From Holophagales bacterium (GTDB taxonomy: Bacteria > Acidobacteriota > Thermoanaerobaculia > UBA5066), in NCBI GenBank assembly GCA_016716705.1, contig JADJVF010000017.1:53808-117807 (forward strand): DNA of 64,000 nt. Direction: 5' to 3'. The notes beneath the pieces were generated by a model, which did no database searches, was not told where the DNA came from, and saw only the letters and a program-made list of their open reading frames with translations. Shown here piece after piece: positions 41,281 to 60,129 of this stretch; positions within the stretch are counted from its first letter, which is position 1, and the number at the start of each line of letters is the position of its first letter. The translations under genes were made by a program, and so were the position numbers.

Positions 41281-42048
41281 TCAGGCGGGCGGCAGCCAGT
41301 CGTCCGGGATGCGCCCTGCCAGCGCCTTCCTCTGAGCGCGGAAGAGGCGGCGGCACCCTCGCCTGGCCACGGTGAGCATCTCGCGGAGGCGCTTGTCGTC
41401 GAACGGCTCGCGCTCGGCCGTCCCCTGCACCTCGACGTAGCGTCCGGTCGAGGTGCCGACGACGTTCAGGTCGACGTGGGCGGTGGAGTCCTCGGTGTAG
41501 TCGAGGTCGAGCGCGACGACGCCCTCGGGACGGTCGGGATCCGGAAGCACGCCGACCGAGATCGCCGCGACCGCCTCGCGGAACGGGCGCTTCTTCAGCC
41601 CGCCCTTCTTCCGGAGCGTCTCGAGGGCGAGGGCGAGGGCGACCCAGGCTCCCGTCACCGAGGCGCAGCGCGTGCCGGCGTCGGCGACGAGGACGTCGCA
41701 GTCGAGCGTCACCGTCCACTCCGGGAAGGTGCGCCGGTCGGCCACGCCGCGCAGGGCGCGCCCGATGAGCCGCTGGATCTCGAGGCTGCGGCCCGTCTGC
41801 TTTCCCTTCGCGGCCTCCCGGGGCGACCGCTCGAGCGTGGCGCGCGGGAGCATCCCGTACTCGGCGGTGATCCACCCTTCGCCCGTGTCGCGCAGGAAGG
41901 GAGGCGTCTTCTGCTCGAGCGTCGCGACGACGAGGACCTTCGTCTTTCCCTGGACGATGAGGCACGAGCCCTCGGCGTGCGGAACGACGTCGCACTCGAG
42001 GGAAACGGGGCGGAGCTGGAGGGGGGAGCGACCGTCGGGGCGAGCCAT
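41281..42048 (-). CDS. rph: Ribonuclease PH
   Basis: The sequence is RNase PH throughout (RPDGRSPLQLRPVSLE…, TAEYGMLPRAT, GRSLEIQRLIGRALR). Confidence 0.85.
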   Translation of the reverse strand: MARPDGRSPLQLRPVSLECDVVPHAEGSCLIVQGKTKVLVVATLEQKTPPFLRDTGEGWITAEYGMLPRATLERSPREAAKGKQTGRSLEIQRLIGRALRGVADRRTFPEWTVTLDCDVLVADAGTRCASVTGAWVALALALETLRKKGGLKKRPFREAVAAISVGVLPDPDRPEGVVALDLDYTEDSTAHVDLNVVGTSTGRYVEVQGTAEREPFDDKRLREMLTVARRGCRRLFRAQRKALAGRIPDDWLPPA

Positions 42049-42059
42049 GGCGGCGGAGC

Positions 42060-42881
42060 TTACGGCAGGTCGACGAGCTCGAGGGCCGCCGCCTCCCGGC
42101 CGAGGAACCGCCCGGCCACGCGGCGGAGGCGCTCGGAGGCGTCGGTGACGAGGAGGTGGGTCTCTCCGGCCCCGCCTTCGCGCCGCGCGTTCGTGCCGAG
42201 GAGCGTCTCGACCTCGACCGCCGTGGAGGCCGCCGAGTCGACGAGGAGCGTCCCTTCGGGGAGCGCGGCGGCGATCGTCGCGGAGAGGAGCGGGTAGTGC
42301 GTGCAGCCGAGGACGACGACGCGGGCCCTCGCCTCGACGACGGGCGCCAGGTAGAGGCGGGCGGCGGCGCGCGCGACCTCGTTCTCCGTCCAGCCTTCCT
42401 CGGCGAGCGGGACGAAGAGCGGGCAGGCGACGTTCATCACCGTGCGGAACGGGTCGAGCGATCGGATCGCGCGGCCGTAGGCGTCGGAAGCGACCGTCGC
42501 CTCCGTCGCGAGGACGGCGATCGGCGCCTCGGCGCCGGGACCGGTGAGGCCCCGCGCCCGGCGGAGGGCCGCCCGCGCGCCCGGCCCGACGACGCCGACG
42601 ACGGGGACGTCGCCGGCCTCCTCGACGATGGCGTCGAGAGCGAGGGCCGAGGCGGTGTTGCACGCCACGACGAGCGCCTTGACGCCCCGCGAGAGGAGGA
42701 GCGAGACGGCGCGGCGGGCATAGCGGCGAACGGTCTCCACCGACTTCGTGCCGTAGGGGAGGCGCGCGGTGTCTCCGAGGTAGAGGAGGTTCTCCGAGGG
42801 GAGGCGGCGGGCGACGGCGTCGAGGACGGTCAGTCCGCCGACCCCGGAGTCGAAGAGGCCGATGGGGCGGTCGTCGGTCAT
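42060..42881 (-). CDS. murI: Glutamate racemase
   Basis: It shows the MurI N-terminus (IGLFDSGVGGLTVL), VVACNTAS and GCTHYP motifs. It continues in frame from the upstream GerMN-domain region with no stop codon. Confidence 0.8.
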   Translation of the reverse strand: MTDDRPIGLFDSGVGGLTVLDAVARRLPSENLLYLGDTARLPYGTKSVETVRRYARRAVSLLLSRGVKALVVACNTASALALDAIVEEAGDVPVVGVVGPGARAALRRARGLTGPGAEAPIAVLATEATVASDAYGRAIRSLDPFRTVMNVACPLFVPLAEEGWTENEVARAAARLYLAPVVEARARVVVLGCTHYPLLSATIAAALPEGTLLVDSAASTAVEVETLLGTNARREGGAGETHLLVTDASERLRRVAGRFLGREAAALELVDLP

Positions 42882-45374: not shown

Positions 45375-45935
45375 ATGAACGCGAGGAGCCCGCCAGGAGT
45401 CCCGCCCGCCGAAAACCACGGCCCGGCGCCGGCCCCTCGCCTAGACTTCTCGTGGCATCGGGAGGACGTCATGCTCGACACGATTCCTCGACGGACCACC
45501 ACGCCGTGTGCGGCCAGCGTACGGTTGCAGGGAGGCCCCCGCCTCGACGTGACCTTCTGGCTTCTGCCCGACCCGCAGAGAGAGCGGGGAGTCATGCCGC
45601 TGAGCCTGCTCCTCGAGGAGGATCGCAAGTTCTTCCCCGTGGGCCTCTCCGACGCCTCGAGCGGACTCCTCTCGCGGGACGCTCTCGTCACGGTGGAGAT
45701 CGACGCCGACGGGCCTGGCGCCGAGCCGGCCCCGGCGGAGGGGATGTCCCTCGACCTCGTGACGCTCCATCTCGTCTCCGGGGAGGAGGTCTCCGGGATC
45801 CTCAGGTCCACGGCGCTCGCGGGCTATGCCCGGATGTCGGACGTCTTCAACTCCTTCGGCCGTTTCGTCCCGATCGGCCTCGGTACGCGGCTCGTGTTCG
45901 TCGCGACGGGCCATATCGCGCGCGTGTCGTTCTGA
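45375..45935 (+). CDS. Hypothetical protein (possibly begins at the internal ATG 45471)
   Basis: This is a 186-aa ORF immediately upstream of pilT. I recognise no confident family. Confidence 0.35.
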   Translation: MNARSPPGVPPAENHGPAPAPRLDFSWHREDVMLDTIPRRTTTPCAASVRLQGGPRLDVTFWLLPDPQRERGVMPLSLLLEEDRKFFPVGLSDASSGLLSRDALVTVEIDADGPGAEPAPAEGMSLDLVTLHLVSGEEVSGILRSTALAGYARMSDVFNSFGRFVPIGLGTRLVFVATGHIARVSF

Positions 45936-45948
45936 AGGAGGGCGAACG

Positions 45949-47667
45949 GTGGCTTCTCGCATCGACCTCCTCGTGGCCAACCTCCTCCAGACCGAAGGCG
46001 AGGCGCTCTACATCATTCCCGGCGAGAGGCTCTTCATGACGCGCGGCACGAGCCGCGTCTTCGTCGGGCGCGAGCCGGTCAGCGTCGAGTCCTTCCGCGC
46101 CGTCGTCGCCGAGGTGGCTCCGGGCCAGGCACCCGACGAGCTCGCCCGGACCCGCTTCCGGATCCCGATGAAGCTCGGTCCCGGAAGGGAATCCGTCGAG
46201 ATTCGCTTCGGTCTCCTCGGCGGGAACGCGGGCCTGATGATCTGCCGTCCGGCGCGGATGACCCCGAGTCCCGAGCCGGGGCCGGCTCCGGCGAAAGAGC
46301 TCGAGCTCGAGCCGGCGCCCGTCTCGCTGCAGGGCCCCGCCACGGCGTTCCTTCAGGCGCCCTCTCCCCTCCCCGCCCAGGTCCCGCCGCACCTTCAGAT
46401 CCCCGCCTCGACGCGGGTCCCCGGCGTCGCGCCGGCGCCGATCCCGGCGGAGGAGATCCCCTATCCCGCGGCCGCTCCGGCTTCGGTGGAGCCGTCGCGC
46501 CTTTCGGTCCTGAGCGAACGGCCGCTCGACGTGATCCTCCTGCGGATGCTCGAGCTCTCGGCATCGGACGTCCACCTCTCCTCCGGAACTCGTCCCCTGT
46601 TCCGCATTCACGGCGAGATGGCCGAGCAGGCCGACCAGCCCGTCCTCAACTCGGAGGAGGTCGAGAGGCTCCTCGCTCCCATCTTTCCCGAGAGGAACCG
46701 GACGGAGTTCCTGGAGCGGCACGACACCGACTTCGCCTACGAGATCGCCGGGGCGGCGCGTTTCCGGGTCAACGTCTTCCGGGACCGGCACGGCGTCGGG
46801 GCCGTCTTCCGCCAGATCCCGATCGAGATCCTCACGGCGCAGCAGCTGGGTCTGCCCGCCTCGGTCGTGAGGCTCGGGGACCTCACGAAAGGGCTCGTCC
46901 TCGTGACCGGCCCGACCGGCTCCGGCAAGTCGACCACGCTCGCCGCCCTCGTCAACTACGTCAACGAGACGCGGACCGACCACATCATCACCATCGAGGA
47001 CCCGGTCGAGTTCGTCCACCGCAACAAGAAGTGCCTCGTGAACCAGCGCGAGGTCGGGAGCCACACCTCCTCGTTCAAGGATGCCCTCCGCGCCGCGCTC
47101 CGCGAGGACCCCGACATCGTCATGGTCGGCGAGATGCGCGACCTCGAGACGGTCGCGATCGCCATCGAGACGGCCGAGACCGGCCACCTCGTCTTCGGGA
47201 CCCTTCACACGACGACCGCGACCTCCACCATCGACCGGATCGTCGACCAGTTCCCGGCCGACCGGCAGCAGCAGATCCGGACGATGCTGGCCGACTCCCT
47301 CAAGGGGGTCGTCGCACAGACGCTCTGCAAGAAGATCGGCGGCGGGCGAGTCGCCGCTCTCGAGGTCCTCCTCACGAACAACGCCGTCGCGAACCTCATC
47401 CGCGACGGGAAGACCTTCCAGCTCCCGTCGGTCCTCCAGACGTCGAAGGCCCAGGGGATGGTCCTCCTCAACGACTCGCTCCTCGACCTCGTGAAGAAGG
47501 GCCTCGTCGAGCCCCGCGAGGCCTACCTCAAGGCCGTCGACAAGGCCGGCCTCCTCGGCTCCTTCCGGAGCAACAACATCGCCCTCCCGACCGAGGTTGC
47601 GACGCCCGAAACCGGCGTGGCTTCGGGGACCGGCGTGCCGGCCGCGGGACGTCCGCCGGGGGGCTGA
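45949..47667 (+). CDS. pilT: Type IV pilus retraction ATPase PilT-like, with a roughly 210-aa N-terminal extension
   Basis: The C-terminal roughly 350 aa are a canonical PilT (Walker A GPTGSGKSTT, Asp box, Walker B, His box, AIRNLIRE-like ANLIRDGK). The N-terminal domain and Pro-rich linker have no PilT counterpart. Confidence 0.8.
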   Translation: MASRIDLLVANLLQTEGEALYIIPGERLFMTRGTSRVFVGREPVSVESFRAVVAEVAPGQAPDELARTRFRIPMKLGPGRESVEIRFGLLGGNAGLMICRPARMTPSPEPGPAPAKELELEPAPVSLQGPATAFLQAPSPLPAQVPPHLQIPASTRVPGVAPAPIPAEEIPYPAAAPASVEPSRLSVLSERPLDVILLRMLELSASDVHLSSGTRPLFRIHGEMAEQADQPVLNSEEVERLLAPIFPERNRTEFLERHDTDFAYEIAGAARFRVNVFRDRHGVGAVFRQIPIEILTAQQLGLPASVVRLGDLTKGLVLVTGPTGSGKSTTLAALVNYVNETRTDHIITIEDPVEFVHRNKKCLVNQREVGSHTSSFKDALRAALREDPDIVMVGEMRDLETVAIAIETAETGHLVFGTLHTTTATSTIDRIVDQFPADRQQQIRTMLADSLKGVVAQTLCKKIGGGRVAALEVLLTNNAVANLIRDGKTFQLPSVLQTSKAQGMVLLNDSLLDLVKKGLVEPREAYLKAVDKAGLLGSFRSNNIALPTEVATPETGVASGTGVPAAGRPPGG

Positions 47668-47679
47668 AGTCCTGACGCT

Positions 47680-48471
47680 TCAGGGAAACACCCGGGTCAG
47701 AACTCCCGTCGCCACCAGCGACGAGAACTGCTGCTCGAGCGACAGCGCGAAGGCAGGGTCCCGAACCAGCGCACCCGCCTCGATATTCCGCACGTGGGCC
47801 GCCTCCGTGAAGTTTGCCGAGGTGACGAGGGCGGTCTGGCTGTCGACGACGATGCACTTGGCGTGGATGACGCCGCGCGCGTCTCCCTTCTTCGCGAGGG
47901 CGCGACGGTCGTAGTAGAGCTCGGGCTCGCGTTTCGCCGGCCAGTTCTTCTTCAGGAACTCCCGGAAGTGGTCGCGGGCCACCGCGTCGGGGTCGAAGTC
48001 CGTACCGGGAGGCGGCGGGACGTTCAGGAAGAGGAGCACCCGGAGATCCCCGATCTCCTCCATCCGCGCCGCGAGCGGCTCGAACACCTCTTTCCCGAGG
48101 TAGACCGTGTAGCTCGAGATCAGGACCGTCCGGATGGCGGTCGAGAAGAGCTCCCGCACGACGACGGACGTGTCCCGGCTCTGGCTTCCGGGCGTCTCCG
48201 GCCCGGTCCAGACGAGCTCGACCCTGTCCGCGGCCGCCTCTTTCTGCTTTCTCTCCGCGGAGGCCGCGAAGAGGACTTCCGCGATGTGCTCGGGCGGCAC
48301 CCCCACGCCTTCCAGTCGACTCAGCTCGGCAACCAGCCCCGACAGATCGACTTTCGGGACGTATCTCGCCAGACCGCCGACGGAGTAGGGGCCGGAGAGC
48401 CTCCCGTCGGCGAGCGCCCGGGCGATCGTCTCGAGCGCCGCCCGCGAAGCTCCGCCGAGGGAACCGCTCAC
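47680..48471 (-). CDS. Phospholipase D-like (HKD) nuclease, DISARM DrmC-like
   Basis: A single HKD motif is present (HAKCIVVDSQTALVTSANFT). It is the last gene of the helicase-DUF1998-PLD operon and its start overlaps the DUF1998 gene's stop by 4 nt. Confidence 0.7.
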   Translation of the reverse strand: MSGSLGGASRAALETIARALADGRLSGPYSVGGLARYVPKVDLSGLVAELSRLEGVGVPPEHIAEVLFAASAERKQKEAAADRVELVWTGPETPGSQSRDTSVVVRELFSTAIRTVLISSYTVYLGKEVFEPLAARMEEIGDLRVLLFLNVPPPPGTDFDPDAVARDHFREFLKKNWPAKREPELYYDRRALAKKGDARGVIHAKCIVVDSQTALVTSANFTEAAHVRNIEAGALVRDPAFALSLEQQFSSLVATGVLTRVFP

Positions 48472-50270
48472 AGGTCCTCCTCGCCGAAGAACTCCGGTCC
48501 CGGGCCGAGGACCGTCGGGACGACGAGAGCGCGATCGAGGAAGTCGTTCCTGTTTTCGCAGCTCGGCTCCGAGATCAGGAGGCAGCCGTGGCAGGCCGAC
48601 CCCGAGAGGAAGCGCTCCTCCTGGCTGCTGTTCGGCCGGTGCATCGCGCAGACCGGATCGTTCGAGCAGAGGCGGGCCATCTCCAGCGCGCGGCGCAGGT
48701 GGAGGTCGAGGCGGCGACCGACGTCGATCAGGCCTCCCAGCGTCCCCTCAGCGTCGGGGCTCGACGTGTAGAGAAGGATCCCGTGCGCGTCGTCGCCCGC
48801 GTAGATCCGCTCTCTTATCGAGCTCGTCGCGTAGCCGCAGTCGAGCGATACCGCCGTCAGCAGGAGATGCGACAGCGAGTGGAGGAGGATGTAGGGGAGC
48901 CCCGGGAACTCCGCGTTCGGCTTCTTGTGGACCGTCTTCCAGGCCTCGAACCCTCCCGCCAGCTCCTTCTCCCGGACCTGGACCTCGGGCCGCTTCCGCC
49001 AAGCGGAGACCCGCGAGGGGTCGAGGGTCAGGAAGATGCCCTCGCCCCGGTTCTCGACAGCCGGAACCCACTTCACCTCGGACGCGAGCGGGGCCGACCG
49101 CACGTCGAGAGAGAGCTCCCCGTCGATGTCGGCGGCCTGCGCCTCGAACCTCGTGAAGCCCACCTGCGCCGACACCTCGCGCAGCCGGTCCACGAGGACG
49201 ACCCGGTCGATCGCCCGGAGCGGTCCCGTCTCTCTCCTGATGGGGATGCGCCGGGCCAGGAAGTCGGCGCCTCCGTGGAATTCCTCGCCGAGCTTCTCCT
49301 TCACCGACAGGAGCGTGGCCAGCTCCAGCTCCTTGATCTTCTGGTTCGGGAGAGGTCCTCCCGTCCGGCGTCTCTCGATCTCCGCGAAGACCTCGTCGTC
49401 CGACAGGCCGTCGAGGGCGGCTTTCACGGATGGACGTTTCCGCTCCTTGGCGAGATCCTCGCGGCTCTCCACAAGCGACAGGAAGTCTTCCCAGAGCTTC
49501 GCCACGGCGTCGCGCACGAGCGACCCACGGTCCGGGAGAGAAATGACGCTGAGGACCTGCGAGAAGTAGGCGTCGCTGGCCGAGCGGATGAGCAGGCGGC
49601 TGAGCTGCAGCTTTCCGCCTTCTCCGCCGCACTTCTCTCCTGCGTACTTCCCCAGCCAGGGCCGCTTGCCGAGGCATGCCCCGAGGTTCTCCGCACCGCG
49701 CCTCGTGGCCTGCGCCATCGACCGCTCCTGGCCGCAGTCGCATCCGACGATGACGTCCGCGAGGTCTCCGGAGGAGCCCCGCTCTTCCATCCAGATCTGC
49801 CGGGCGCAGTCGCCACGGTACTGGTGAATGAAGCCGTGCCAGTCGATGTCGGACAGGTGACCCAGGACGCAGGCCTGAACGAACCGGACCGGGATCGCCG
49901 GGACCTTCTTCCCGTCCACCTCGTATCGGCCCTTCGTGAGGCTCTCGAGGTGAACGAGCGGCCGCCTCTTCCTCTTGACCTGCACCACGAACCACTCCGG
50001 AAACTGGAACGCCGGCACGCCTGTCGGGGTCTTTCTCTCGTCGTCGTCGGCGATCGGCGGCCCCTTCAGCGGCACCGGCTTCGCGCGATTCAGCACCGCC
50101 GCGACCTTCGCCGAGAGCCTCTCCTCGACGATCGCCGGCATCTCCGCCTGGGGAAACCAGTAGTCGAGCCCGCTGACGACGACCGAGTGGTTCGGCAGGT
50201 CGACCATCGAGCCGGGGCCGTAGGTCCGGATGAGCTGGCTCCGGCGGATCTCCCCCTGGTGCTTCTTCAC
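48468..50270 (-). CDS. DUF1998-domain protein, DISARM DrmB-like
   Basis: From the GTG start, the N-terminus reads KKHQGEIRRSQLIRTYGPGSMVDLPNHS. A C-terminal Cys cluster (CAMH…CHGCLLISEPSC) is typical of DUF1998. The start overlaps the helicase stop (GTGA). Confidence 0.7.
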   Translation of the reverse strand: MKKHQGEIRRSQLIRTYGPGSMVDLPNHSVVVSGLDYWFPQAEMPAIVEERLSAKVAAVLNRAKPVPLKGPPIADDDERKTPTGVPAFQFPEWFVVQVKRKRRPLVHLESLTKGRYEVDGKKVPAIPVRFVQACVLGHLSDIDWHGFIHQYRGDCARQIWMEERGSSGDLADVIVGCDCGQERSMAQATRRGAENLGACLGKRPWLGKYAGEKCGGEGGKLQLSRLLIRSASDAYFSQVLSVISLPDRGSLVRDAVAKLWEDFLSLVESREDLAKERKRPSVKAALDGLSDDEVFAEIERRRTGGPLPNQKIKELELATLLSVKEKLGEEFHGGADFLARRIPIRRETGPLRAIDRVVLVDRLREVSAQVGFTRFEAQAADIDGELSLDVRSAPLASEVKWVPAVENRGEGIFLTLDPSRVSAWRKRPEVQVREKELAGGFEAWKTVHKKPNAEFPGLPYILLHSLSHLLLTAVSLDCGYATSSIRERIYAGDDAHGILLYTSSPDAEGTLGGLIDVGRRLDLHLRRALEMARLCSNDPVCAMHRPNSSQEERFLSGSACHGCLLISEPSCENRNDFLDRALVVPTVLGPGPEFFGEEDL

Positions 50271-53200
50271 GCCTCGGCCTCCTCGATCTCGGGAACGTCC
50301 CGGTTGTCGAGGCGCCTCAGGACCAGGCCGACGCTCGGCTCGACGTCTCTCATCGCGCGCTGGGCCCGGAACTTCCTCATCTCGGGGTAGAGATCGAGCT
50401 CGGGGTCGAGCGGGTCGCGCAGCAGCGGGAAGGCGTTCGCCGGGTTGCCGCGCTCCCATTTCTGGTAGACCACCTTCACGTTCTTCTCCCGCTTCTCGCG
50501 CGCGAAGACCGCCCAGCTGTCGAGGAGGTCGTCCACGAGGCTCCGAACCCGCTTGCGGAGGGCCTCGAGATCCTCGTCGCTCTTCGAAGGGTCGTGCCCC
50601 GAGGCCCTCTGCGACATCGCCTCCGCCACGAACCCCGCGTCCTTGCGGCACCTCTCCATGGCGGCGGCCCCGCCCGGAGGCTGCAGCTCCCGTATGCCGT
50701 GCCGCGCGAGCGCGACGCAGACGGCCGCGGCCGCCCGGTCGAGCGCCCGCGCCGAGAAGGGCGTCACGCTCGTCGCCTCCACGGCACGGTAGAAGGTCGC
50801 GTGGTACGCCTCGAACCGCTCGTAGTGCGACCGGTCCCGCGGACGGTGGACGTTCTGGAGCGTTACGACGAGGCCGGGCCGGTTGTCGTCGCGGCCGACG
50901 CGGCTCGTCGCCTGGATGTACTCCGACGTCGTCTTCGGCTGCCCGAGGACGACCATCAGCCCGAGCCGCGGGATGTCGAGGCCGACGGAGATCATGTTCG
51001 TCGCCAGCGCCACGTCGACGTGGTCCTTGTGGTCGTGGGAGAAGGCGAGGCGCTCCCTTGCGCGGGAGACCTTCGACGTCGATTCGCGCGACGTCAGCTC
51101 GACCACTTCCTGCTGGATCTGACGGTCGCGGAAAGGGCCGGCGATCTCTCCCATCCGTCGCCGCTCGCTGCGCTGCGCGGCTCTCGCCGCGACCTCGTCC
51201 TCGACGATCCGTCTCGTGCCGCCCAGCTCCCTGAGGCTCGTGAAGTAGCCGAGAAGGCTCATGTAGGGGTCCGCCGGGTTCTTCTCCCCGAGCGCCGTCC
51301 CGCCCGCCTCGTCATACATTCGCTGCGAGGCCCCGAGCAGCGCGAGATAGGCGCGCAGCAGCAGGACCTTCAGGCTCCGTCCCTGCGCGGAAAGCCCGAC
51401 GTACGTCCGCGGCTCCTTCTCGGAGACGGGCACCGTCCGCGCGAAGAAGGAGTCCCGCCGATCGGGACCAGGGGGAGGAAACACCGCAACCGACGAACGA
51501 CCGAACAGCGCCTTCACCTGCGCCTCGGCCCGCCGGATCGTCGCCGTCGACGCTACGATCTTCGGCCGGATCGCCTTGCCGTCGACGAACCGCGTCGCCA
51601 GCGTGTCGATCGCGATCTCGTACAGCCCCGCGATCGTCCCGAGCGGCCCGGAGATCAGGTGCAGCTCGTCCTGGATGATCAGGTCCGGCGGCAGGAGCTC
51701 CTTCTCCGCCTTCCCGAACAGCCCTCCCACCTCGCCGACCCACGGAAGGCTCGCGAACTTGTCCACCGTGGCGATCAGGAACGCGGGGAGCCTCTGGTAG
51801 ATCGGCTCGTCCACCGTCAGGATCGGCAGCGGACGCCTGCCGGTGAAGTCGCAGTCGCGGTTCATGCAGACGACCCTCAGGTCGGTCGGGCGGTCCGCGT
51901 TGGGCAGAAGCGAGAACGACGGCGGCAGGAACGGCTCGCCACACCAGGGGCAGCTCTCCAGCGGAATCGGCGGCGGATAGCGCTTGCTGTCCTTCTTGTA
52001 GCGAAGCGTCTTCGACCTCGCCGTGTTCTCGTCGCCGTCGGCCTTCGAGCCCATCCGGTTCGGCGTGGCCGCCCGGCCCACCCAGAGCCCGACCTCGAAC
52101 GGCCATTCCCCCATTTCGGCGGGATTCGTCTCTCTCTCGAGCTCCAGGGCACAGACGAGCGCCGCCACGCGCCCAAGCTGGTCGAGCGTCAGGAGCCGGA
52201 GCGTGTATCTCATCAGGACCGAGACCCCGGCCGACGAAAGGCCCGGGTTCCGGAGGCGCCGAAGGACCATCGTGAAGGCCGCGAGCCCCAGGTAGGCCTC
52301 GGTCTTTCCTCCGCCCGTCGGGAAGAAGAGAAGGTCCACCGCGTTGCGATCTGCGGACTTCGGGTCCACCACGCTTCTCAGGTTCATCAGGAGGAACGCG
52401 AGCTGGAACGGGTACCACGCCGGAGCGCGCGTGGCCTCGGGCCGCACCTTCAGCAGCATCGCCTGGCGGCGCCGGGCCGCCCGGGCCATCGCCCGGTTCG
52501 CCACCTGGAACGCCTGAGAACCTGCGGGTCGGAAAGAAGGCCGATCCCCGTCGCGATCCGGCCGCAGGCGAGCTCGGCGTCGCGCAGAAGGAACTGCGCG
52601 GTCTCGGCGCGCCGCCCCTCGAAGACCTCGCTGCGCTGCCTTCCTATCCACTCTGCGTAGCGAAGCGGAAAGGGAGCCAGCGCCGACTTCAGCTCGTCCG
52701 GCCCCTTCATCGCAGCCAGGGCTTCCATCCCGAGCTCGACGCCCGGCATCAGGGTCGGCTCCACCTTCTCCACGGCCGCACGCGGCACCCATTCCGTGGA
52801 GACCTCCCGGCACTCGCCGTCGCTCCCGAAGACCGTCCGGGCCGAGACGCCGTGCCCCACGACGAACTCGACGACGTCCCGGTACTGGAGGTCGGCGACG
52901 CGCTCGTCCCAGTCTTCCGCTTCGAGCCCCGTCGCATTCGGCCTCGGCACGAAAGGCTGCTTCCCCCGCACGGTGAGACGAACCTGGAAGGCCATCGCCT
53001 CGTCCTTCCGTTCGTCGGGCGCGGGCTTGCGATAGTTCACGACGAAGACCGAGATGCTTCGCGTTCCGGCCGGAAGCCCCAGCCTCTCCATCCCATCCGC
53101 CGGCCGAGCGGTGACGATCAGCTTCAGCCCGCCGGAGTCCGGAAGGTCGAGAGGAAGCGGCTTCGAGCCGTTGCCCGTGACGGCCACCCGGAGAACCGAC

Positions 53201-53622
53201 CGCTTCGGTTCCCTCTTCCACGTGTCGCCGGCCCGTTTCGTCGCGCCCTCGCCCTCGCCCTCCGCCGCCGGCAGGCTGTAGTCCCCCCAGGTCACCTCCG
53301 CCTCGAGCTCCTGCAGCCCCGCCGACGTCAGGACGCTGAGGCCGATGGACGAAGGAAGGAACGCCTTCCTCGCAGAGGCCCGGTCGGGCGCATCGGAGTC
53401 GTCCGCCCCCACCTCGTCACCGGCAGCGAAAAGCTCCTCGTTGCTCGTCTGGTCGCACTTCTGCTCGTCCGACGCCTCGAACGGCACGAGGAACCCGCCG
53501 ATGTACCAACGGGATGGCTCGTCGGGCAGCTCTTCGCGCTCGTGCACGCTCCCCGGCTCCGGACCGGTGAGGTCGAGCCGCAGGGCCCGAATCAGCTCGT
53601 CCCGGACTTCGGCGGATTTCAT
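50267..53622 (-). CDS. DExH-box helicase, DISARM DrmA-like; reading frame interrupted by a 1-nt frameshift near 52505-52530
   Basis: The N-terminal part is ORF 53622..52450 (MKSAEVRDELIRALRLDLTGP…). The helicase part lies in a different frame, ORF …52516..50267, with motif I FFPTGGGKTEAYLG and motif II IIQDELHLISGP. The two frames abut at the rev-comp sequence …PQVL|QAFQVANRAM. Confidence 0.65.
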
Positions 53623-54035
53623 CGTGGTCCTCTCCAGCTCAGGGGAGCTCCACTTTGCGGGACTTGTCGACGTGATCGCCGGACAGCGCGCCTTCCGGAC
53701 TCATGATACCCACGCTCGAGAGGCACTCTCGCCGGCCAGGTCGGGGCGACCCCGAAGCGGTATCGCGGCGCATGGCACTCCTGACCTGGGACTGAGCCCA
53801 CATCGCGAACGCCGAGCTCTTCCCGCAAGTGGCCCGCCTCGTCGAGCGACGCGGCCTTGGCCCTCAGAACCTCGGCCAGGGTGCAATCATCGGCAAAGGG
53901 GTAGTTGGGAAGTCGACCCGGCGTCTCCAGGGCATCCTGCCCGCGCTTCGCAAACTCGAGGAACTTCTGTGGTCCCTCTCGGCACCCTGGACGTTCTCGA
54001 GGTTCCTGACGAAGAAGCGCTCGTCCCTCCTGCGC

Positions 54036-54380
54036 CTACTCCTGCCTGACGACGTCGACCGAGATCTCAACCGCCGGAATCGTTCCTCTGTTCTCGAGCC
54101 AGTGCGTGGTGTTCCTGTCCTCGGGCCAGCCCACTCCCGGCCCGTAGTCCGTGGAGGCTCCATCCCGATGGTCGGTGATCGTTCCTTGCAGGACGTAGAC
54201 GGTGCCTGGTCTGCCCTTGTGGTCGTGAATCGGGCCGAAGACGCCTCCGGGCTCGATGGTCACCATGCGCATTCGAAGCTGGCGCCCTGCCATGCCCTCG
54301 ATCTCGGGGCCGAGATCGACCGTTGCAAGCAGCTTCACCGTGACGCCCTTCGTCTCAGGTGCCACCTGTTCGTTGCTCAT
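54036..54380 (-). CDS. Cupin-domain protein
   Basis: The 114-aa protein has a cupin beta-barrel motif (…HDHKGRPGTVYVLQGTITDHRDG…). Confidence 0.55.
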   Translation of the reverse strand: MSNEQVAPETKGVTVKLLATVDLGPEIEGMAGRQLRMRMVTIEPGGVFGPIHDHKGRPGTVYVLQGTITDHRDGASTDYGPGVGWPEDRNTTHWLENRGTIPAVEISVDVVRQE

Positions 54381-54478: not shown

Positions 54479-54865
54479 CTACTGGCCCGCCGGGGGCTCC
54501 CAGAGCTCGACCTTGTTCCCTTCAGGATCGAGGACCCACCCGAAGCGACCGAACTCCGACTCGTCGACCTTCTCGAGGACGTTGCAGCCTTCCTCGCGGA
54601 GGACGGCGATGAGGCCGCGAAGGTCGGCCACCCGGTAATTGACCATGAATCGCGACGTGCTCGGGGCAAAGTCCTCGCTCCCCATGCCCGTGACGTTCCA
54701 GATCGTCTGGCCCGGCATGGGGCTGCCGTCGGCGTCGGAGAACGGAATCACGGCGCCGCCCCACTCCAGGACGTCCACCCCGAGATGCTCCTTGTACCAG
54801 GCGCGCAGCGCGGCGGGATCCTGAGCCTTGAAGAAGATGCCCCCGATGCCGATGACTCGCCTCAT
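54479..54865 (-). CDS. VOC-family (glyoxalase/bleomycin-resistance-like) protein
   Basis: The 128-aa protein shows a VOC fold pattern (IGIGGIFFKAQDPAALRAWY…GNKVELWEP). Confidence 0.6.
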   Translation of the reverse strand: MRRVIGIGGIFFKAQDPAALRAWYKEHLGVDVLEWGGAVIPFSDADGSPMPGQTIWNVTGMGSEDFAPSTSRFMVNYRVADLRGLIAVLREEGCNVLEKVDESEFGRFGWVLDPEGNKVELWEPPAGQ

Positions 54866-56048: not shown

Positions 56049-56906
56049 TCAGGAGAGCCGCCGGTACAGCTCGGCGTTCTTCTCGATGACGTGACGTGCC
56101 GCTGACAGGAACGCCTCGTCTCGGCCCTCGATGACCGCCCTCGAAGAGCAGGCGCCGGCGATGGCCCGGGCGAGGCCCGAGGGGTTCTCCCACGCCATCG
56201 AGTGGCCGGCGTCGGGGACGACGGCCACGCCGACGCCGCCCGCGGGGAGCGACTCGGCGTCCGGGTCTGGCAGGGAGCGCGCGCCAAAGAGGACGGTGCG
56301 CGGGACGTCGAGCGCGAGCAGCTGCCGTCGCCACGAAGGCGACGCCCCCTCGACGAGCGAGACCGCCCCGCGGTGCGCCGCGAACGGAGCCGTCGCCGCC
56401 ATCGAGCCCGCCCAGATGTCGTTCCCGGAGCGCGCCGCCTCGCGGATCGTCTCCGCGTGCCCGTTCGCGACGTATCGGGCTTCGGGCTGCGCGGCGATGC
56501 TCCTGCTGAAGACCCCGCCTCCCGGGTCGAGATTGGGCTCGGAAAGCACCAGGTGCTCGACGCGCCCCGGCAGCATCGTCGCAGCGACAATCGCCACGGC
56601 GCCGCCCATGCTGTGACCGTAGAGGTCACACGTCGCGACGCCGAGCGCGTCGATCAGGGCGACGAGGACCCTCGCGTGAGCGGAGACCGAGTAGTCGAAG
56701 CCCTCCGGTCTGTCGCTGAACCCGGAACCGAGGAGGTCGACGAGGATCGCCCTCCGCGACGCGAGGGACGGGTCCCGAGCGACCGCCGGGTAGTCGCACG
56801 ACGACGCGCACCCCAGTCCGTGGACGAAGACGAGAGGCGTGCCGACCCCCGCGAGGTCGTGGAACCGGATCGTAGCTTCCGGGGACTCGAGGACGAGAGA
56901 CTTCAT
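56049..56906 (-). CDS. Alpha/beta-hydrolase fold protein
   Basis: It has an HGLG oxyanion motif, a GHSMGG nucleophile elbow and a C-terminal GHS/His region. Confidence 0.7.
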   Translation of the reverse strand: MKSLVLESPEATIRFHDLAGVGTPLVFVHGLGCASSCDYPAVARDPSLASRRAILVDLLGSGFSDRPEGFDYSVSAHARVLVALIDALGVATCDLYGHSMGGAVAIVAATMLPGRVEHLVLSEPNLDPGGGVFSRSIAAQPEARYVANGHAETIREAARSGNDIWAGSMAATAPFAAHRGAVSLVEGASPSWRRQLLALDVPRTVLFGARSLPDPDAESLPAGGVGVAVVPDAGHSMAWENPSGLARAIAGACSSRAVIEGRDEAFLSAARHVIEKNAELYRRLS

Positions 56907-56972
56907 GAGACTCCTGCGTTGGTGACGCGGCTCGAATCATCGAACCAGGTGATCCCGCGGACCATGCCGGGG

Positions 56973-57479
56973 TCAGGCACCCGCTTCGCGGTGGAAATGG
57001 TCTTCCCACGAGAGCACGTCGCCTTCGGGAAGGTCGGAGAGGCCCAGGCGGCGGAGCATGAGCAGGAGCTGTGCTCGGTGGTGCATGCTGTGTGTAATCA
57101 CATGAACGATTGCACCGCCGAACGAAAAGCGGGCGCCGTCAGGATCGGGGGAATCGGTGAACGTGTCGTCCAGGCGGCCGGCCCGAAGCAGAGCGCGCGA
57201 GGTCACCGCCAGGTCGTGGGAGGCGGCTGTGAGCCGCGAGAGAAGCAGCGGGACCGTATGTGTGTCTTGCGAGGGAGGGTGTGGGCGCACGGGCCGTTCG
57301 GCAATGAGGTCGGTCCAGTACTCCATGTTCTTGACGATGTGACTGAAGGTGGCGCGAACGGTGCCGAGGCCAACGCCGAGCGGGCGATCGAGCTCCTCGT
57401 CTGACAGCGTCGCGCAACAGCGCAGGACGGCCTCGGTGGTCCACGCGTCGTGTCCAAGAAGACGATCGAGTATGTCCAT
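56973..57479 (-). CDS. DinB/DinB_2-family (four-helix-bundle metal-binding) protein
   Basis: The 168-aa protein has a DinB-like His-containing helix pattern (…HIVKNMEYWTDLI…HSMHHRAQL…). Confidence 0.55.
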   Translation of the reverse strand: MDILDRLLGHDAWTTEAVLRCCATLSDEELDRPLGVGLGTVRATFSHIVKNMEYWTDLIAERPVRPHPPSQDTHTVPLLLSRLTAASHDLAVTSRALLRAGRLDDTFTDSPDPDGARFSFGGAIVHVITHSMHHRAQLLLMLRRLGLSDLPEGDVLSWEDHFHREAGA

Positions 57480-57677
57480 GCACGGATTCTCTCCCGGGTG
57501 CCCATCCTTCCGGCGTCAATGAGAAATGCCCGTCACTGAGCCGGAAGGACGCAACAAGCTCCGGGAGCATGAGAAAGTCGGCGACTGCGTTGGCGACACA
57601 GGTCGATGCCGGCGCCGATGACGCCTCGAAGCTTTGAACCTTGGAGCTCTCCCGGCGTATCAGTGTCAGGAGAGCCC

Positions 57678-58172
57678 ATGAAGCTACTGAGAACGCTCCA
57701 GGGAACCATGTTGCTGCTGGGGATGATCTGCGTTGAGGCCGACTGCCAGGAAGCTCCGAGACAGGGAGAAGCGACGACGAAAGAAGAGGCCCCAGCTCTA
57801 CTGGACGAAATCCGTCGACAGGATGCGGCGATGTTCGATGCCTTCAACCGGCACGACCTCGATGCCGTGATGGCGACGTTCTCGGAGAAGCTCGAGTTCT
57901 ACCATGACACTGGGGGCTTGCAGTCGTACAGCGACGTCAGGAAAGGCTTCAAGACCATCTTCGCCAGGAACGACGGCATTCGTCGGGAGCTTGTAAAGGG
58001 AAGCCTGGACGTCTATCCCATCAAGGGCTATGGGGCTATTGAACTTGGCGCTCATCGCTTCTGCCATGTCGAGCAGGGGCGAGAGGACTGTGGGACATTC
58101 CGGTTCCTTCACGTATGGCAGAAGGACGGTCAGACGTGGAAGGTCACTCGGGTTGTCAGCTACGGCCATTAG
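57678..58172 (+). CDS. NTF2-like/SnoaL-like (DUF4440) secreted protein
   Basis: A signal peptide begins at the internal ATG 57678. The core looks like DUF4440/NTF2 (DAAMFDAFNRHDLDAVMATFSEKLEFYHDTGG). Local GC is noticeably lower than in the rest of the window. Confidence 0.55.
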   Translation: MKLLRTLQGTMLLLGMICVEADCQEAPRQGEATTKEEAPALLDEIRRQDAAMFDAFNRHDLDAVMATFSEKLEFYHDTGGLQSYSDVRKGFKTIFARNDGIRRELVKGSLDVYPIKGYGAIELGAHRFCHVEQGREDCGTFRFLHVWQKDGQTWKVTRVVSYGH

Positions 58173-58398
58173 AGCGTCGTGAGACTCGACGCAGCCGCCC
58201 CTCTACCCTACCGGGTCAGGCGTTCCACAGCTCCTTGTGCTCGGCCTCGGTGAGCTCCTCGAGGAGCTTCAGGGCTTCGGAGAGGAGGTCTTCTCTCGTC
58301 ACGATTTGCATCTTCCTGCTCGCGTCCACACCATGCAGAAGAAGCCCGCCGAGAAGGCCTGCGATGTTTCCTTTATCAGGCAAGAAGTCGCGATGACG

Positions 58399-60129
58399 CT
58401 AGGCCGGCGAGACTCCGATGCGACGCACGAGATCGATGAAGCGCGCGTCCGGGCGGAGGGGCTCGAGGCCGGGAGCCCCGGGGAGCCAGAACAGGTAGCC
58501 GTCGCGCATCTGGTAGGCCTTCTCCAGCCAGTCGAACGCGACGTCGATCTCGCCGAGCCCCGCGTGGACGACCGCCATCGCGGTCGGCGGGCACTGGCCT
58601 CGCGTGCGGAGCTCCTCGAGCTCGCGGAGCAGGAGCCTGGCTTCGTCCGTCCGGCCGAGCCGGCCATAGACGTGCGCCAGGTAGGAGAGGGACAGGGCTT
58701 CGCGCGAATGGCTCAGAGCCTTCTCGAGGGCGGCAACCGCGTCATCGGCGTGGCCCCGGTGCCACGCCGACCACCCGAGCACGAAATAGGGCTGAAGCGA
58801 ATCCGGGAACAGCTCGATCGTCCTCCTGGCCTGCGCCTCCGCCCGCGCGTGCTGGCCCAGGTGGAGGAACATCCATGCGGCGTACTGGTTCGGCAGGAGA
58901 GCCGCGGGATTGAGCTTCAGCGCGTACTGGACCTCCCTGGTCGCCTCCGGCTTGTCGCCGGTGAAGCACAGCAGCGTCGAATGGAACGAGTGCGCGTCCG
59001 GGTCGCTGGGGCTCAGCTCGATCGCGCGCCGAGCTTCCCGGAGGGCCGCGCCCAGGTCCCAGTCGAGAAGGAGGTCCATCCAGGCGAGGACCAGGTGGGC
59101 CGTGCCGAGACCGTCGTCGACGGCCACGGCCTGAAGCGCCAGGTGCTTCGCGCCGGGGTAGACCTCGCCGGCCGGAGCATGTCCCCAGTAACCCAGCATG
59201 AACAGGCAGGCGGCGTGCAGGGCGAGGCCCGGCGCGAAGTCGGGCGCCCTCAGGTTGATCTCCCGGAAGTGCCGGAGCGCGTTCCCGATTCCCTCCGCGG
59301 TCATCTTGTCGAACTCGGCGCGGGCCTTCAGGTAGGCCTCCGCTATCTCCGGCGCCACCGTCTTCACCGCGGCCTGCGGTGGCAGCGCCGGCCCGGCAGG
59401 TCGCAGCGCCGCGGCGATGGACCCGGCAATCGCCCGCGCCGCCTCGCATTGCGTCGCGAGCACGGCGGACAGGTCGCAGTCGTAGCTGTGCGCCCACGCG
59501 TGGCGCTCGGGATCCATCAGGACCAGCTGCGCCGACACGCGAACGCGACGCCCCTCCACCAGCGCGGCTCCCTCGACGACGCCGTTCACTCGGAGGTCGC
59601 GGGCGATCTCGTCCAGCTTCAGGCTGCTCCCTTTCAGGTGGAGCACGGACTGGCGTGAGATCACCCGCACCGCCGGGATGCGGGCCAGCTCCGTGATGAG
59701 CGCGTCGGTGAGCCCGTCGGCGAAGTAGTCCTTCTCGGGATCGCGGTTCAGGTTGGAGAACGGGAGCACCGCCACCGCGGGCTCTTCGAACGACCGCTCG
59801 TGCCGGACCGGCGCGATGAAGCGGTAGCCACGGCGGGGAAGCGTCTCGACGTAGCGGGGGGACCGGGCGTCGTCGCCGAGAACGGAGCGGATGCGATGGA
59901 CACAGTAGTCCACCCCGGTGTCGTATTCCACGAACGTCGAGTCGTCCCACAGGAGACGACGAATCTCGTCGCGGGAGACAAGTCGGCCGGCCTGCCCCAC
60001 CAGAAAGCACAGCACGCGCGAGGGCTGCGGTCGGAGCTTCCGCACCCTGCCCGCCTTGCGCAACGTTCCGCTTTCCAGGTCGAGCTCGAACGCGCCGAAG
60101 GTGACCCGACCCAACGCGGCCGGCATCAT
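58399..60129 (-). CDS. CadC/OmpR-type winged-helix transcriptional regulator with TolB-like and TPR C-terminal region
   Basis: It has an N-terminal trans_reg_C domain (FGAFELDLESGTLRKAGRVRKLRPQPSRVLCFLV…RDEI…LW), a TolB-N-like segment and TPR-like repeats. Confidence 0.65.
   Translation of the reverse strand: MMPAALGRVTFGAFELDLESGTLRKAGRVRKLRPQPSRVLCFLVGQAGRLVSRDEIRRLLWDDSTFVEYDTGVDYCVHRIRSVLGDDARSPRYVETLPRRGYRFIAPVRHERSFEEPAVAVLPFSNLNRDPEKDYFADGLTDALITELARIPAVRVISRQSVLHLKGSSLKLDEIARDLRVNGVVEGAALVEGRRVRVSAQLVLMDPERHAWAHSYDCDLSAVLATQCEAARAIAGSIAAALRPAGPALPPQAAVKTVAPEIAEAYLKARAEFDKMTAEGIGNALRHFREINLRAPDFAPGLALHAACLFMLGYWGHAPAGEVYPGAKHLALQAVAVDDGLGTAHLVLAWMDLLLDWDLGAALREARRAIELSPSDPDAHSFHSTLLCFTGDKPEATREVQYALKLNPAALLPNQYAAWMFLHLGQHARAEAQARRTIELFPDSLQPYFVLGWSAWHRGHADDAVAALEKALSHSREALSLSYLAHVYGRLGRTDEARLLLRELEELRTRGQCPPTAMAVVHAGLGEIDVAFDWLEKAYQMRDGYLFWLPGAPGLEPLRPDARFIDLVRRIGVSPA

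What the first reader, a model, noticed from the sequence alone, without database searches (positions are those of the whole stretch)
47680..53622. Compact helicase-DUF1998-PLD (DrmA-DrmB-DrmC-like) defence operon with no methyltransferase in reach
Three minus-strand genes are translationally coupled by 4-nt GTGA overlaps at 50267-50270 and 48468-48471. They encode a DExH helicase (motif I FFPTGGGKTEAYLG, motif II DELH), a DUF1998 protein with a C-terminal Cys cluster, and a single-HKD phospholipase-D nuclease (HAKCIVVDSQTALVTSANFT). This triad is the defining core of DISARM (Ofir et al. 2018). Known DISARM classes also carry an adenine or cytosine methyltransferase plus drmD or drmE. Here the operon is flanked by pilT (convergent, 12 nt away) and by an AT-richer 400-bp non-coding stretch followed by cupin and VOC genes, so no methyltransferase lies within about 6 kb on either side. 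It is therefore either a methylase-less DISARM-like variant, a DISARM whose methylase is encoded elsewhere, or a decaying locus. Its GC content matches the host, which argues against recent acquisition.
Basis: partly seen in the sequence, partly recalled or inferred. Interest (0 to 1): 0.8.

Follow-up and report, generated by a model that had tools for sequence, protein, structure and literature searches.

The report
Methylase-less DISARM core operon (drmABC)
This is a real three-gene DISARM anti-phage core (helicase DrmA, zinc-finger partner DrmB, nuclease DrmC) from a lineage of Acidobacteria that keeps these genes under selection without the usual methyltransferase and second helicase. In this particular copy the helicase gene carries a one-base frameshift.

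Summary
The described features are real. Window 47680-53622 (minus strand) encodes class-1-type DISARM DrmA, DrmB and DrmC. The GTGA stop/start overlaps, catalytic motifs and host-like composition are all as reported.

One thing was missed. drmA is not one ORF: a 1-nt deletion at about 52516/52517, absent from two close relatives, splits it.

No DNA methyltransferase, DrmD or DrmE was found anywhere in the 64-kb window.

Related loci show this is not an isolated remnant:
- The window belongs to a DrmB clade with 99-100/100 bootstrap support (Holophagales, Thermoanaerobaculia and allies; down to 59-64% identity).
- Every member examined carries drmABC alone, in at least seven different neighbourhoods, mostly with intact genes.
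- dN/dS is 0.07-0.10 against the closest intact relative.
- Outside the clade, 41 of 49 loci with enough flank have the canonical drmD-drmMI-drmABC layout.

Best reading: a stand-alone, methylation-independent DrmABC cassette, a natural counterpart of published Serratia constructs lacking the methylases. The window copy is either freshly inactivated or mis-assembled. A methylase encoded elsewhere in the genome cannot be excluded.

It is a new variant of a known system, of moderate interest.

The parts
50267..53622 (-). drmA, a DISARM SF2 (DExH) helicase of the short 'DrmAS' type. It is interrupted. With one base restored it encodes 1118 aa with motif I GGGKT (aa 437), motif II DELH (652), motif III TAT (693) and motif VI QATSRVGR (904).
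   Evidence: ORFs and translation. PADLOC DrmA 3e-269 and NCBIfam DISARM_DrmAS at 199 + 929 bits in two pieces against a cut-off of 950. PDB 7S9V_A DrmA at 7e-168. Motifs.
52514..52519 (-). Site of the 1-nt deletion that shifts the drmA frame after about codon 366.
   Evidence: Three-way DNA alignment: the window has CTC-AGG, L001 has CTCCAGG and L002 has TTCAAGG. It is the window's only frame-shifting difference from L001 in the cassette; the other two gaps between them are 6 and 3 nt.
52450..53622 (-). N-terminal drmA fragment as it reads now: 366 native residues, then 24 out-of-frame codons and a TGA at 52452-52450. In-frame ATGs for the helicase core lie at 52489-52487 and 52459-52457. The second is part of ATGCTGCTGA, which overlaps that stop.
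   Evidence: by direct reading of the sequence. Re-initiation at these ATGs is inference only.
48468..50270 (-). drmB, the OB-CON-DUF1998 (MZB) zinc-binding partner of DrmA. 600 aa from a GTG start, with C-terminal CxxxxxC...CxxC cysteines at aa 535-563.
   Evidence: Pfam MZB 2.3e-10. PADLOC DrmB 9e-76. NCBIfam DrmB_fam 560 bits. PDB 7S9V_B at 1e-91. The N-terminal 21 residues are conserved in homologues, which supports the GTG start. Cysteines.
47680..48471 (-). drmC, a single-HKD phospholipase-D-family nuclease of 263 aa, with the motif HAKCIVVDSQTALVTSAN at aa 203.
   Evidence: Pfam PLDc_2 3.4e-13. PADLOC DrmC 1e-84. NCBIfam DISARM_DrmC_I 176 bits. The motif is conserved across the clade.
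50267..50270 (-). GTGA overlap of the drmA stop and the drmB start.
48468..48471 (-). GTGA overlap of the drmB stop and the drmC start.
53623..54035 (.). 413-bp spacer upstream of drmA, presumed to hold the promoter. Only its last 36 bp (53623-53658) are shared with the relative L001.
   Evidence: No sigma-70-like promoter, terminator or Rfam match. No Pfam hit in its translated frames. Cassette homology boundary.
47676..53658 (-). The roughly 6-kb cassette shared at 92.8% nucleotide identity with L001 (GCA_016714815.1), where it sits in an unrelated neighbourhood. This defines the unit that is conserved.
   Evidence: blastn boundaries. L001 gene map.

Best explanation
The locus is a stand-alone DISARM core cassette, drmA-drmB-drmC. 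It derives from class 1 DISARM and belongs to an acidobacterial lineage that has lost, and does not need nearby, the methyltransferase DrmMI and the SNF2 helicase DrmD.

Likely mechanism, inferred from the Serratia class 1 system:
- DrmA and DrmB form a 1:1 helicase complex that is kept off the host chromosome by an acidic, unstructured 'trigger loop'. Here the candidate segment is about aa 48-80, upstream of and running into the first residues that align to Serratia DrmA 218-439.
- The complex loads only on single-stranded or 5'-overhang DNA ends of entering or replicating foreign DNA.
- ATP-driven translocation then blocks replication.
- The translationally coupled PLD nuclease DrmC is the candidate degrading enzyme.
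- Self/non-self discrimination would therefore rest on DNA structure, not on an epigenetic mark.

Shown here: gene identities, intact motifs, absence of drmMI and drmD from the window and from clade relatives, monophyly of that clade, and purifying selection.

Inferred: the defence function, the trigger-loop mechanism and the role of DrmC.

The window's own copy has a 1-nt deletion in drmA. That is either an assembly error or a very recent inactivating mutation.
For: 1. Identity. PADLOC, NCBIfam and Pfam hits support all three genes. DrmA (7e-168) and DrmB (1e-91) match the solved Serratia DrmAB, 7S9V.

2. No partner genes.
- No DNA methyltransferase domain occurs in any sizeable ORF of the 64-kb window.
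- No PADLOC defence hit occurs in the ten nearest genes, apart from weak wHTH and P-loop matches.
- HMMs built from 24 DrmMI and 9 DrmD sequences of related loci find nothing in the six-frame translation of the window, L001, L002, L083, L086 or L087.

3. Clade pattern.
- In a DrmB tree the window groups with L001-L004, L083, L086, L093, L087 and L089, with 99-100/100 bootstrap support.
- All six distinct members with at least 6.5 kb upstream lack drmMI and drmD. Three more with shorter flanks show none.
- The neighbourhoods differ: PilT/VOC; GGDEF/PDC-S01; ApbE; NHL; McrBC+MazE-PIN; DnaE; YidB.

4. Contrast outside the clade.
- 41 of 49 loci with at least 5.5 kb upstream carry DrmMI (PADLOC E = 0), often with DrmD.
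- The nearest outgroups L090 and L091 (57-58% identity) also have DrmMI.
- An annotated example is Trichormus variabilis plasmid C: drmD ... MTase ... drmA-drmB-drmC.

5. Selection.
- dN/dS between the window and L001 is 0.10, 0.10 and 0.07 for drmA, drmB and drmC at dS of about 0.23-0.30.
- It is 0.06 for the part of drmA after the frameshift.
- DrmA is intact (1116-1161 aa) in L001, L083, L086, L087, L089 and L093.
- Helicase, cysteine and HKD motifs are conserved in the five clade members examined, and there are no clade-specific indels.

6. The cassette moves as a unit. Homology with L001 runs only from 36 nt upstream of drmA to 4 nt past drmC.

7. Literature.
- The trigger loop and 5'-overhang activation are described in PMC9142583.
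Against: - Only one 64-kb window of the genome could be read, and about 6.5 kb upstream plus about 9 kb downstream in most relatives. A methyltransferase or DrmD elsewhere in these genomes cannot be excluded.
- In some canonical loci drmMI ends about 6 kb upstream of drmA, so the roughly 6.5-kb upstream view in relatives is marginal.
- In Serratia, loss of drmD plus drmMI nearly abolished protection against phage Nami. A bare DrmABC may therefore be a weak or narrow defence.
- drmA is frameshifted here, and is split by several indels in the syntenic L002.
- Most neighbourhoods are housekeeping genes rather than defence islands.
- No functional data exist for any member of the clade.
Confidence: 0.6

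Rival explanations
1. It is an ordinary class 1 DISARM that is physically split. drmABC sits here, and the methyltransferase (and DrmD) are encoded at another locus and still mark host DNA.
For: - The rest of the genome is not available.
- Outside the clade, 8 of 49 loci also show no DrmMI within about 6.5 kb, and in several canonical loci up to about 6 kb of other genes separate drmMI from drmA.
- Methylation lowers DrmAB ATPase activity in Serratia (PMC9142583), so a methylase would be useful.
Against: - Every clade member examined lacks drmMI and drmD nearby, in at least seven neighbourhoods.
- The unit shared between the window and L001 is exactly the three genes.
- There are 10.4 kb upstream and 47.7 kb downstream in the window with no MTase.
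- Systems whose parts depend on each other are normally kept linked.
Confidence: 0.17
2. The locus is a decaying remnant of a DISARM system: the methylase and DrmD are already lost, and drmA is now a pseudogene with no function.
For: - The window has a 1-nt frameshift in drmA.
- drmA is also broken in the syntenic L002.
- The locus is embedded in housekeeping genes with fully host-like composition.
Against: - dN/dS is 0.06-0.10, including downstream of the frameshift.
- There is no second lesion in 6 kb, and all catalytic motifs are intact.
- Orthologues are intact in L001, L083, L086, L087, L089 and L093.
- Contigs from the same sequencing project as L002 (ERZ250395xx) split many genes (L090, L097), and L002 splits neighbours that are whole in the window. 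This points to long-read indel errors rather than decay.
- At the level of the clade, decay is rejected. For this one copy, a very recent inactivation remains possible.
Confidence: 0.15
3. The cassette has a housekeeping DNA-repair role, like the related YprA-family helicase-nuclease pair MrfAB, rather than a role in defence.
For: - DrmAB belongs to the YprA family, which also contains repair helicases (10.1101/2025.09.15.676423).
- Most neighbourhoods in the clade are housekeeping genes, composition is host-like, and no methylase is present.
Against: - The proteins nest inside the class 1 DISARM family, whose other members carry drmD and drmMI.
- The same cassette sits in different places in closely related genomes, which is typical of defence cargo.
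- Two members lie next to McrBC plus a toxin-antitoxin pair, or next to a PADLOC candidate defence gene.
- The split DrmA/DrmB layout plus a PLD nuclease is the DISARM signature, not the MrfA-MrfB one.
Confidence: 0.06

Closest known systems
Class 1 DISARM (drmD-drmMI-drmA-drmB-drmC; Ofir et al. 2018; the Serratia sp. SCBI system of Aparicio-Maldonado et al. 2021 and Bravo et al. 2022)
   Same: - It has the same three core genes in the same order, with the same translational coupling.
- DrmA, DrmB and DrmC match class-1-type models (NCBIfam DISARM_DrmAS, DrmB_fam, DISARM_DrmC_I).
- DrmA and DrmB match the solved Serratia DrmAB.
- Relatives at 45-58% DrmB identity have the full five-gene layout.
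   Different: - There is no drmMI and no drmD in the window or next to any clade member.
- DrmA is the short form. It is about 200 aa shorter than Serratia DrmA, and the alignment starts at Serratia residue 218. The N-terminal EVE-like domain reported for long class 1 DrmA therefore appears to be absent (10.1101/2025.09.15.676423).
- This copy has a frameshift in drmA.
Engineered Serratia DISARM lacking the methylases (DrmABC-only constructs)
   Same: The gene content is the same as in the window. Those constructs were reported as not autoimmune and as protective against phage M13 (10.1101/2021.12.28.474362).
   Different: Those are laboratory deletions of a five- to six-gene system, and they lost most activity against phage Nami. 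Here the reduced set is a natural lineage kept under purifying selection.
Class 2 DISARM (drmE-drmA-drmB-drmC-drmMII; Bacillus paralicheniformis)
   Same: It shares the helicase, DUF1998 and PLD core triplet.
   Different: - No C5 cytosine methyltransferase (PF00145) was found in any ORF scanned against Pfam.
- No DrmE match was found among the ten nearest genes scanned against PADLOC.
- The proteins match class-1-type models, not class 2 models.
ARMADA, Dpd and Druantia (other YprA-family defence systems) and MrfAB repair
   Same: All use a YprA-family SF2 helicase with a DUF1998/MZB module.
   Different: - In those systems the helicase and DUF1998 are usually fused, and the partners differ: BrxHII/PglX-like proteins, Dpd modification genes, or the MrfB exonuclease.
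- Here only weak local DpdJ/DpdF hits appear over the helicase core.

Membership tests
DISARM (any class) | DrmA: SF2 helicase with Helicase_C (pfam00271), matching DrmA models | tested here: met
   - Pfam Helicase_C 7.8e-8 and PADLOC DrmA 3e-269.
- NCBIfam DISARM_DrmAS scores 199 + 929 bits in the two pieces against a cut-off of 950 for the whole protein.
- PDB DrmA 7e-168.
- The gene is interrupted by a 1-nt deletion.
DISARM (any class) | DrmB: separate DUF1998/MZB protein encoded directly after DrmA | tested here: met
   Pfam PF09369 2.3e-10. NCBIfam DrmB_fam 560 bits against a cut-off of 240. PDB DrmB 1e-91. GTGA overlap with drmA.
DISARM (any class) | DrmC: PLD-family (HKD) nuclease | tested here: met
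   Pfam PLDc_2 3.4e-13. NCBIfam DISARM_DrmC_I 176 bits against a cut-off of 133. The HxKxxxxD...TSxN motif is intact.
DISARM class 1 | DrmMI: N6-adenine (MmeI/Eco57I-like) methyltransferase in the operon | tested here: not met
   - No MTase domain occurs in the window ORFs.
- A DrmMI HMM built from 24 relatives finds nothing in six frames of the window or of clade loci.
- The motif scan flags only one ORF (41110-42294, +). It lies antisense to the RNase PH gene and is judged spurious.
DISARM class 1 | DrmD: SNF2-like helicase in the operon | tested here: not met
   A DrmD HMM built from 9 relatives finds nothing in the window or in clade loci. The flanking genes give no PADLOC DrmD hit.
DISARM class 2 | DrmMII (C5 cytosine methyltransferase, pfam00145) and DrmE | tested here: not met
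   - No PF00145 hit occurs in any window ORF scanned.
- No C5 motif pair (PCQ.FS plus ENV) was found.
- The ten nearest genes give no PADLOC DrmE or DrmMII hit.
- The small ORFs left out of the Pfam scans were not checked.
DISARM (any class) | Methylation of host DNA at a system-specific motif, and protection against phages | not testable with these tools
   This needs a methylome (SMRT or ONT) and plaque assays.
MrfAB / YprA repair module | Helicase fused to OB-CON-DUF1998, paired with an MrfB-type 3'-5' exonuclease | tested here: not met
   The helicase and DUF1998 are separate genes and the nuclease is a PLD. Family features as described in 10.1101/2025.09.15.676423.
ARMADA | YprA helicase with fused nuclease, plus a BrxHII-like helicase and a PglX-like methyltransferase | tested here: not met
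   No BrxHII- or PglX-like gene is in the window. The best models are DrmA, DrmB and DrmC.

The most novel reading that the evidence does not exclude
The acidobacterial DrmABC-only clade is a self-sufficient innate immune system. It tells foreign from host DNA purely by DNA-end or single-strand structure, with no epigenetic self-mark and no SNF2 partner. That would be a natural demonstration that the methyltransferase of DISARM is an add-on rather than the basis of self-recognition.
Probability: 0.45. Interest if true: 0.55.

Novelty: new variant of a known kind. Interest (0 to 1): 0.4.

Why it matters
DISARM is named and usually defined by its link to restriction-modification. How it spares host DNA is still debated.

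A lineage that has kept only DrmA, DrmB and DrmC through divergence down to about 60% protein identity, in many genomic settings and under purifying selection, is natural evidence that the core can be maintained without a linked methylase or DrmD. This fits the structure-based (trigger loop, 5' overhang) model and the laboratory result that methylase-free class 1 DISARM is not autoimmune.

It also matters for annotation. Rule-based defence finders that require a methyltransferase would probably miss or down-rank these loci.

The intact relatives, for example in GCA_016714815.1, offer a minimal 6-kb system to test experimentally.

Tried and rejected
- **Exact look-up of the source contig.** Look-ups of the window's DrmB, and of its 100%-identical database entry P0001, found nothing on record. 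The rest of the source contig (126 kb) could not be read.
- **Mobile-element signatures.** The repeat search around the cassette gave only chance-level direct and inverted repeats. There is no tRNA at the borders; the only tRNA, tRNA-Pro, is 7 kb away.
- **The 413-bp spacer.** It has no Rfam match, no sigma-70-type promoter and no terminator, and its longest translated frames have no Pfam hit, despite one P-loop-like string.
- **A conserved partner gene in the clade.** All-against-all comparison of flanks found no family shared by all contexts. A VOC gene sits upstream of drmA only in the window, L002 and L086. An McrC remnant occurs in L086 and L087. Unknown neighbours have no PADLOC hits.
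- **Modified-base sensing through an N-terminal EVE-like domain of DrmA.** Not supported. This DrmA is the short form and its alignment to Serratia DrmA starts at residue 218.
- **Clade-specific changes in DrmA that might compensate for the lost methylase.** There are no indels, and only three clade-specific substitutions at otherwise conserved columns (G42, P319, L1029). These are uninformative.
- **A natural split of DrmA at the frameshift position.** Many short N-terminal DrmA fragments exist in the protein database. The one inspected (L097) lies on a contig with many broken genes, so these fragments look like assembly artefacts.
- **Phage carriage.** There is no DrmB match in the phage collection. 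Plasmid matches are at most 52% identical, and the one inspected is a canonical DISARM.
- **Ofir et al. 2018 (PMC5739279).** The paper is not held in the library. What it says about class definitions is taken from papers that cite it.


Full report
**What is in the window**

The window is about 70% G+C. Its DrmB is 100% identical to a protein annotated from a Holophagales (Acidobacteriota) MAG.

On the minus strand, 47680-53622 holds three tightly packed genes.
- drmB (50270..48468, GTG start, 600 aa) overlaps the upstream gene by the 4-nt sequence GTGA.
- drmC (48471..47680, GTG start, 263 aa) overlaps drmB in the same way.

Profile searches identify the three proteins without ambiguity.
- Pfam: Helicase_C, MZB/DUF1998 and PLDc_2.
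- PADLOC: DrmA 3e-269, DrmB 9e-76 and DrmC 1e-84.
- NCBIfam: DISARM_DrmAS, DrmB_fam and DISARM_DrmC_I.
- DrmA and DrmB match the cryo-EM structure of Serratia DrmAB (7S9V) at 7e-168 and 1e-91.

- A convergent PilT-like ATPase ends 12 nt from the drmC stop.
- Upstream lie a 413-bp spacer, then a Cupin_2 gene and a VOC gene.
- Codon-position G+C of the drm genes (GC3 0.87-0.91) matches that of their neighbours.

drmA is not one ORF. 53622..50267 is 3356 nt, and the translation switches frame near 52517.

Aligning the cassette with two close relatives shows one missing base in the window: CTC-AGG against CTCCAGG in L001 and TTCAAGG in L002. With that base restored, DrmA is 1118 aa and 95.7% identical to the intact L001 protein.

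Nothing else in the 6 kb is damaged. Between the window and L001, dN/dS for the part of drmA after the frameshift is 0.06. So the lesion is either an assembly error or very young.
- L002, which is syntenic with the window, has several indels in drmA and splits neighbouring genes that are whole in the window.
- Other contigs from the same project as L002 (L090, L097) also have many split genes.
- Indel artefacts are therefore common in this kind of data. I could not determine how the window's own assembly was made.
- In-frame ATGs for the helicase core lie at 52489 and 52459. The latter is within ATGCTGCTGA, which overlaps the premature stop. A two-piece product is conceivable but untested.

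**Is a methyltransferase in reach?**

No.
- Pfam scans of essentially all sizeable ORFs of the 64-kb window gave housekeeping families and no DNA methyltransferase, SNF2 helicase or other restriction-modification component.
- PADLOC gave nothing relevant for the ten nearest genes.
- I built HMMs from 24 DrmMI and 9 DrmD sequences found next to related drmABC loci. I searched every stop-to-stop segment of at least 40 aa in all six frames. There were no hits in the window, so no remnants either.
- A motif scan for N6/N4 and C5 methyltransferase signatures flagged only an ORF antisense to RNase PH.
- A few small ORFs (about 105-220 aa) were not scanned against Pfam.

**What relatives show**

A scan of one genome per species returned 80 DrmB loci. 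Clustering their flanking ORFs revealed two recurrent partners upstream of drmA.
- One is DrmMI (PADLOC E = 0; Pfam Eco57I/MmeI methyltransferase).
- The other is DrmD (PADLOC 1.5e-242).

Outside the window's clade, 41 of 49 loci with at least 5.5 kb upstream have DrmMI. The gene ends 0-6 kb from drmA, sometimes with other defence genes inserted between them: GmrSD, Gabija, AbiE-like genes. An annotated example is Trichormus variabilis plasmid C.

The window's own clade is different.
- L001 (93% nucleotide identity) carries intact drmABC in a completely different neighbourhood. Homology with the window starts 36 nt before drmA and stops 4 nt after drmC.
- L083-85, L086, L087-88, L093-96 and L089 (DrmB 83% down to 59% identical) each carry drmABC alone, with DrmA intact, in further different neighbourhoods.
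- None has a DrmMI or DrmD hit. L001, L002, L083, L086 and L087 were searched with the HMMs. The later loci were checked only against the Pfam annotation of their called genes.
- Their unknown neighbours have no PADLOC hits, apart from a PDC-S01 candidate next to L001.
- In DrmB trees the group is monophyletic: 100/100 bootstraps for the core, 100/100 with L087 and 99/100 with L089.
- The nearest outgroups (L090 and L091, 57-58%) have DrmMI again.
- Six of six adequately flanked clade loci lack DrmMI, against 8 of 49 outside. The hypergeometric probability is about 1e-4 by my arithmetic, but this ignores shared ancestry. The sensible reading is one ancestral loss followed by retention.

**Selection and integrity**

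dN/dS between the window and L001 is 0.10, 0.10 and 0.07 for drmA, drmB and drmC. It stays below 0.45 for drmA and drmB at all depths, with dS saturating.

Helicase motifs I, II, III and VI, the DrmB cysteine cluster and the DrmC HKD motif are conserved in the five clade members examined.

Compared with methylase-linked relatives, the clade's DrmA has no specific insertions or deletions, apart from four extra residues at the extreme C-terminus, and only three diagnostic substitutions.

**How it most likely works**

The following rests on the Serratia class 1 system, not on tests done here.
- DrmA and DrmB form a complex that is autoinhibited by an unstructured trigger loop.
- DNA with a 5' single-stranded overhang dislodges the loop.
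- ATPase activity is needed for defence.
- DrmC is dispensable in Serratia and does not co-purify with DrmAB (PMC9142583).
- Class 1 DISARM without its methylases is not autoimmune, and DrmABC alone protects against M13. Loss of drmD plus drmMI nearly abolishes protection against phage Nami (10.1101/2021.12.28.474362).

The window's DrmA aligns to Serratia DrmA from residue 218 onward. Just before and across the start of that aligned region it has an acidic, low-complexity segment (about aa 48-80), which is the natural trigger-loop candidate (inference).

My best explanation is therefore a stand-alone, structure-sensing DrmAB helicase with a coupled PLD nuclease, working without an epigenetic self-mark (confidence 0.6).

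Rivals:
- methylase and DrmD encoded elsewhere (0.17);
- a decaying remnant, which is possible for this copy but rejected for the clade (0.15);
- a repair role (0.06).

**Comparison with the known and novelty**

The three core features of DISARM are met. The two features that define class 1 (DrmMI, DrmD) and those of class 2 (DrmMII, DrmE) were tested and not met. So this should not be filed as a complete DISARM of either class. It works like, and descends from, class 1.

In the papers I could search, I found no description of a conserved methylase-less DrmABC lineage. The 2025 YprA-family survey only mentions 'many uncharacterized DISARM-like ... classes'.

Because the laboratory version of this reduced system has already been reported as viable, I rate it a new variant of a known kind, with interest 0.4.

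Noticed in passing
window 60844-61234 (ORF 60890-61225, +): A small winged-helix (MarR/Csa3-like) gene of about 110 aa is 92% identical in DNA to L087 5373-5764. There it lies 0.8 kb upstream of drmA, although the DrmABC proteins of the two loci are only about 65% identical. A degraded 120-bp copy lies just downstream of drmC in L001 (12941-13060). This single-gene element is far more conserved than its surroundings and turns up near three methylase-less drmABC loci.
   Followed up: partly
window 54479-54865 (VOC) and 54036-54380 (cupin); L002 6157-6543; L086 6148-6534: A VOC/Glyoxalase_6 gene (79% aa identity) sits 78-113 bp upstream of drmA in L002 and L086. In the window, a cupin gene plus the 413-bp spacer lie between VOC and drmA. 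VOC-drmA adjacency is kept in three contexts whose other flanks differ, but it is absent from L001, L083, L087 and L093.
   Followed up: partly
window 61226-62045: A stretch of about 820 bp between the wHTH gene and the NHL-repeat gene shows no convincing coding frame by codon-position G+C.
   Followed up: no
window 56900-58400: A lower-G+C patch (0.60-0.62, against 0.70 for the window) holds a DinB-family gene (56973-57479, -) and a DUF4440/SnoaL-like gene (57606-58172, +). A DUF4440 gene also lies just downstream of drmC in L093-L096.
   Followed up: no
L086 5610-6062 and L087 286-3683: L087 has a complete McrB-McrC pair, a small nucleotidyltransferase and a MazE-PIN pair directly upstream of drmA. 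L086 keeps an McrC fragment (83% aa identity to L087 McrC) at the corresponding place. This suggests an older McrBC-drmABC neighbourhood in part of the clade.
   Followed up: partly
L002, L090, L097 (ENA ERZ250395xx contigs); L003: These long contigs split many genes into pieces (DrmA, DrmB, DrmD, DrmMI, an amidase, a racemase). The pattern is typical of uncorrected long-read indels. It also explains the many short 'DrmA N-terminal' proteins in the protein database.
   Followed up: partly
protein P0125 (JGI, 2.8-kb contig): A 517-aa predicted protein joins a DrmA N-terminal region (47% identical to the window's) to a PhnB-like glyoxalase-superfamily C-terminus. It is probably a truncated drmA run into a neighbouring gene.
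   Followed up: no
L074 4458-6560; L091 730-6612; L046 2256-4304 and similar loci: In canonical class 1 relatives, other defence genes are often inserted between drmMI and drmA. These include GmrSD type IV nucleases, a Gabija-like OLD/UvrD pair plus AbiEi-like genes, and an unknown protein of about 680 aa with weak LmuB similarity that recurs in five loci.
   Followed up: partly
window 45826-47667 (+): The PilT-like T2SSE ATPase ORF is 613 aa from its first ATG, with the ATPase domain only at aa 253-525. The N-terminal half is proline- and alanine-rich with no Pfam hit. The true start was not determined.
   Followed up: no
window 40361-40435 (-): tRNA-Pro (TGG) is the only RNA gene detected in the window. 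It is 7 kb from drmC and is not at a cassette border.
   Followed up: yes
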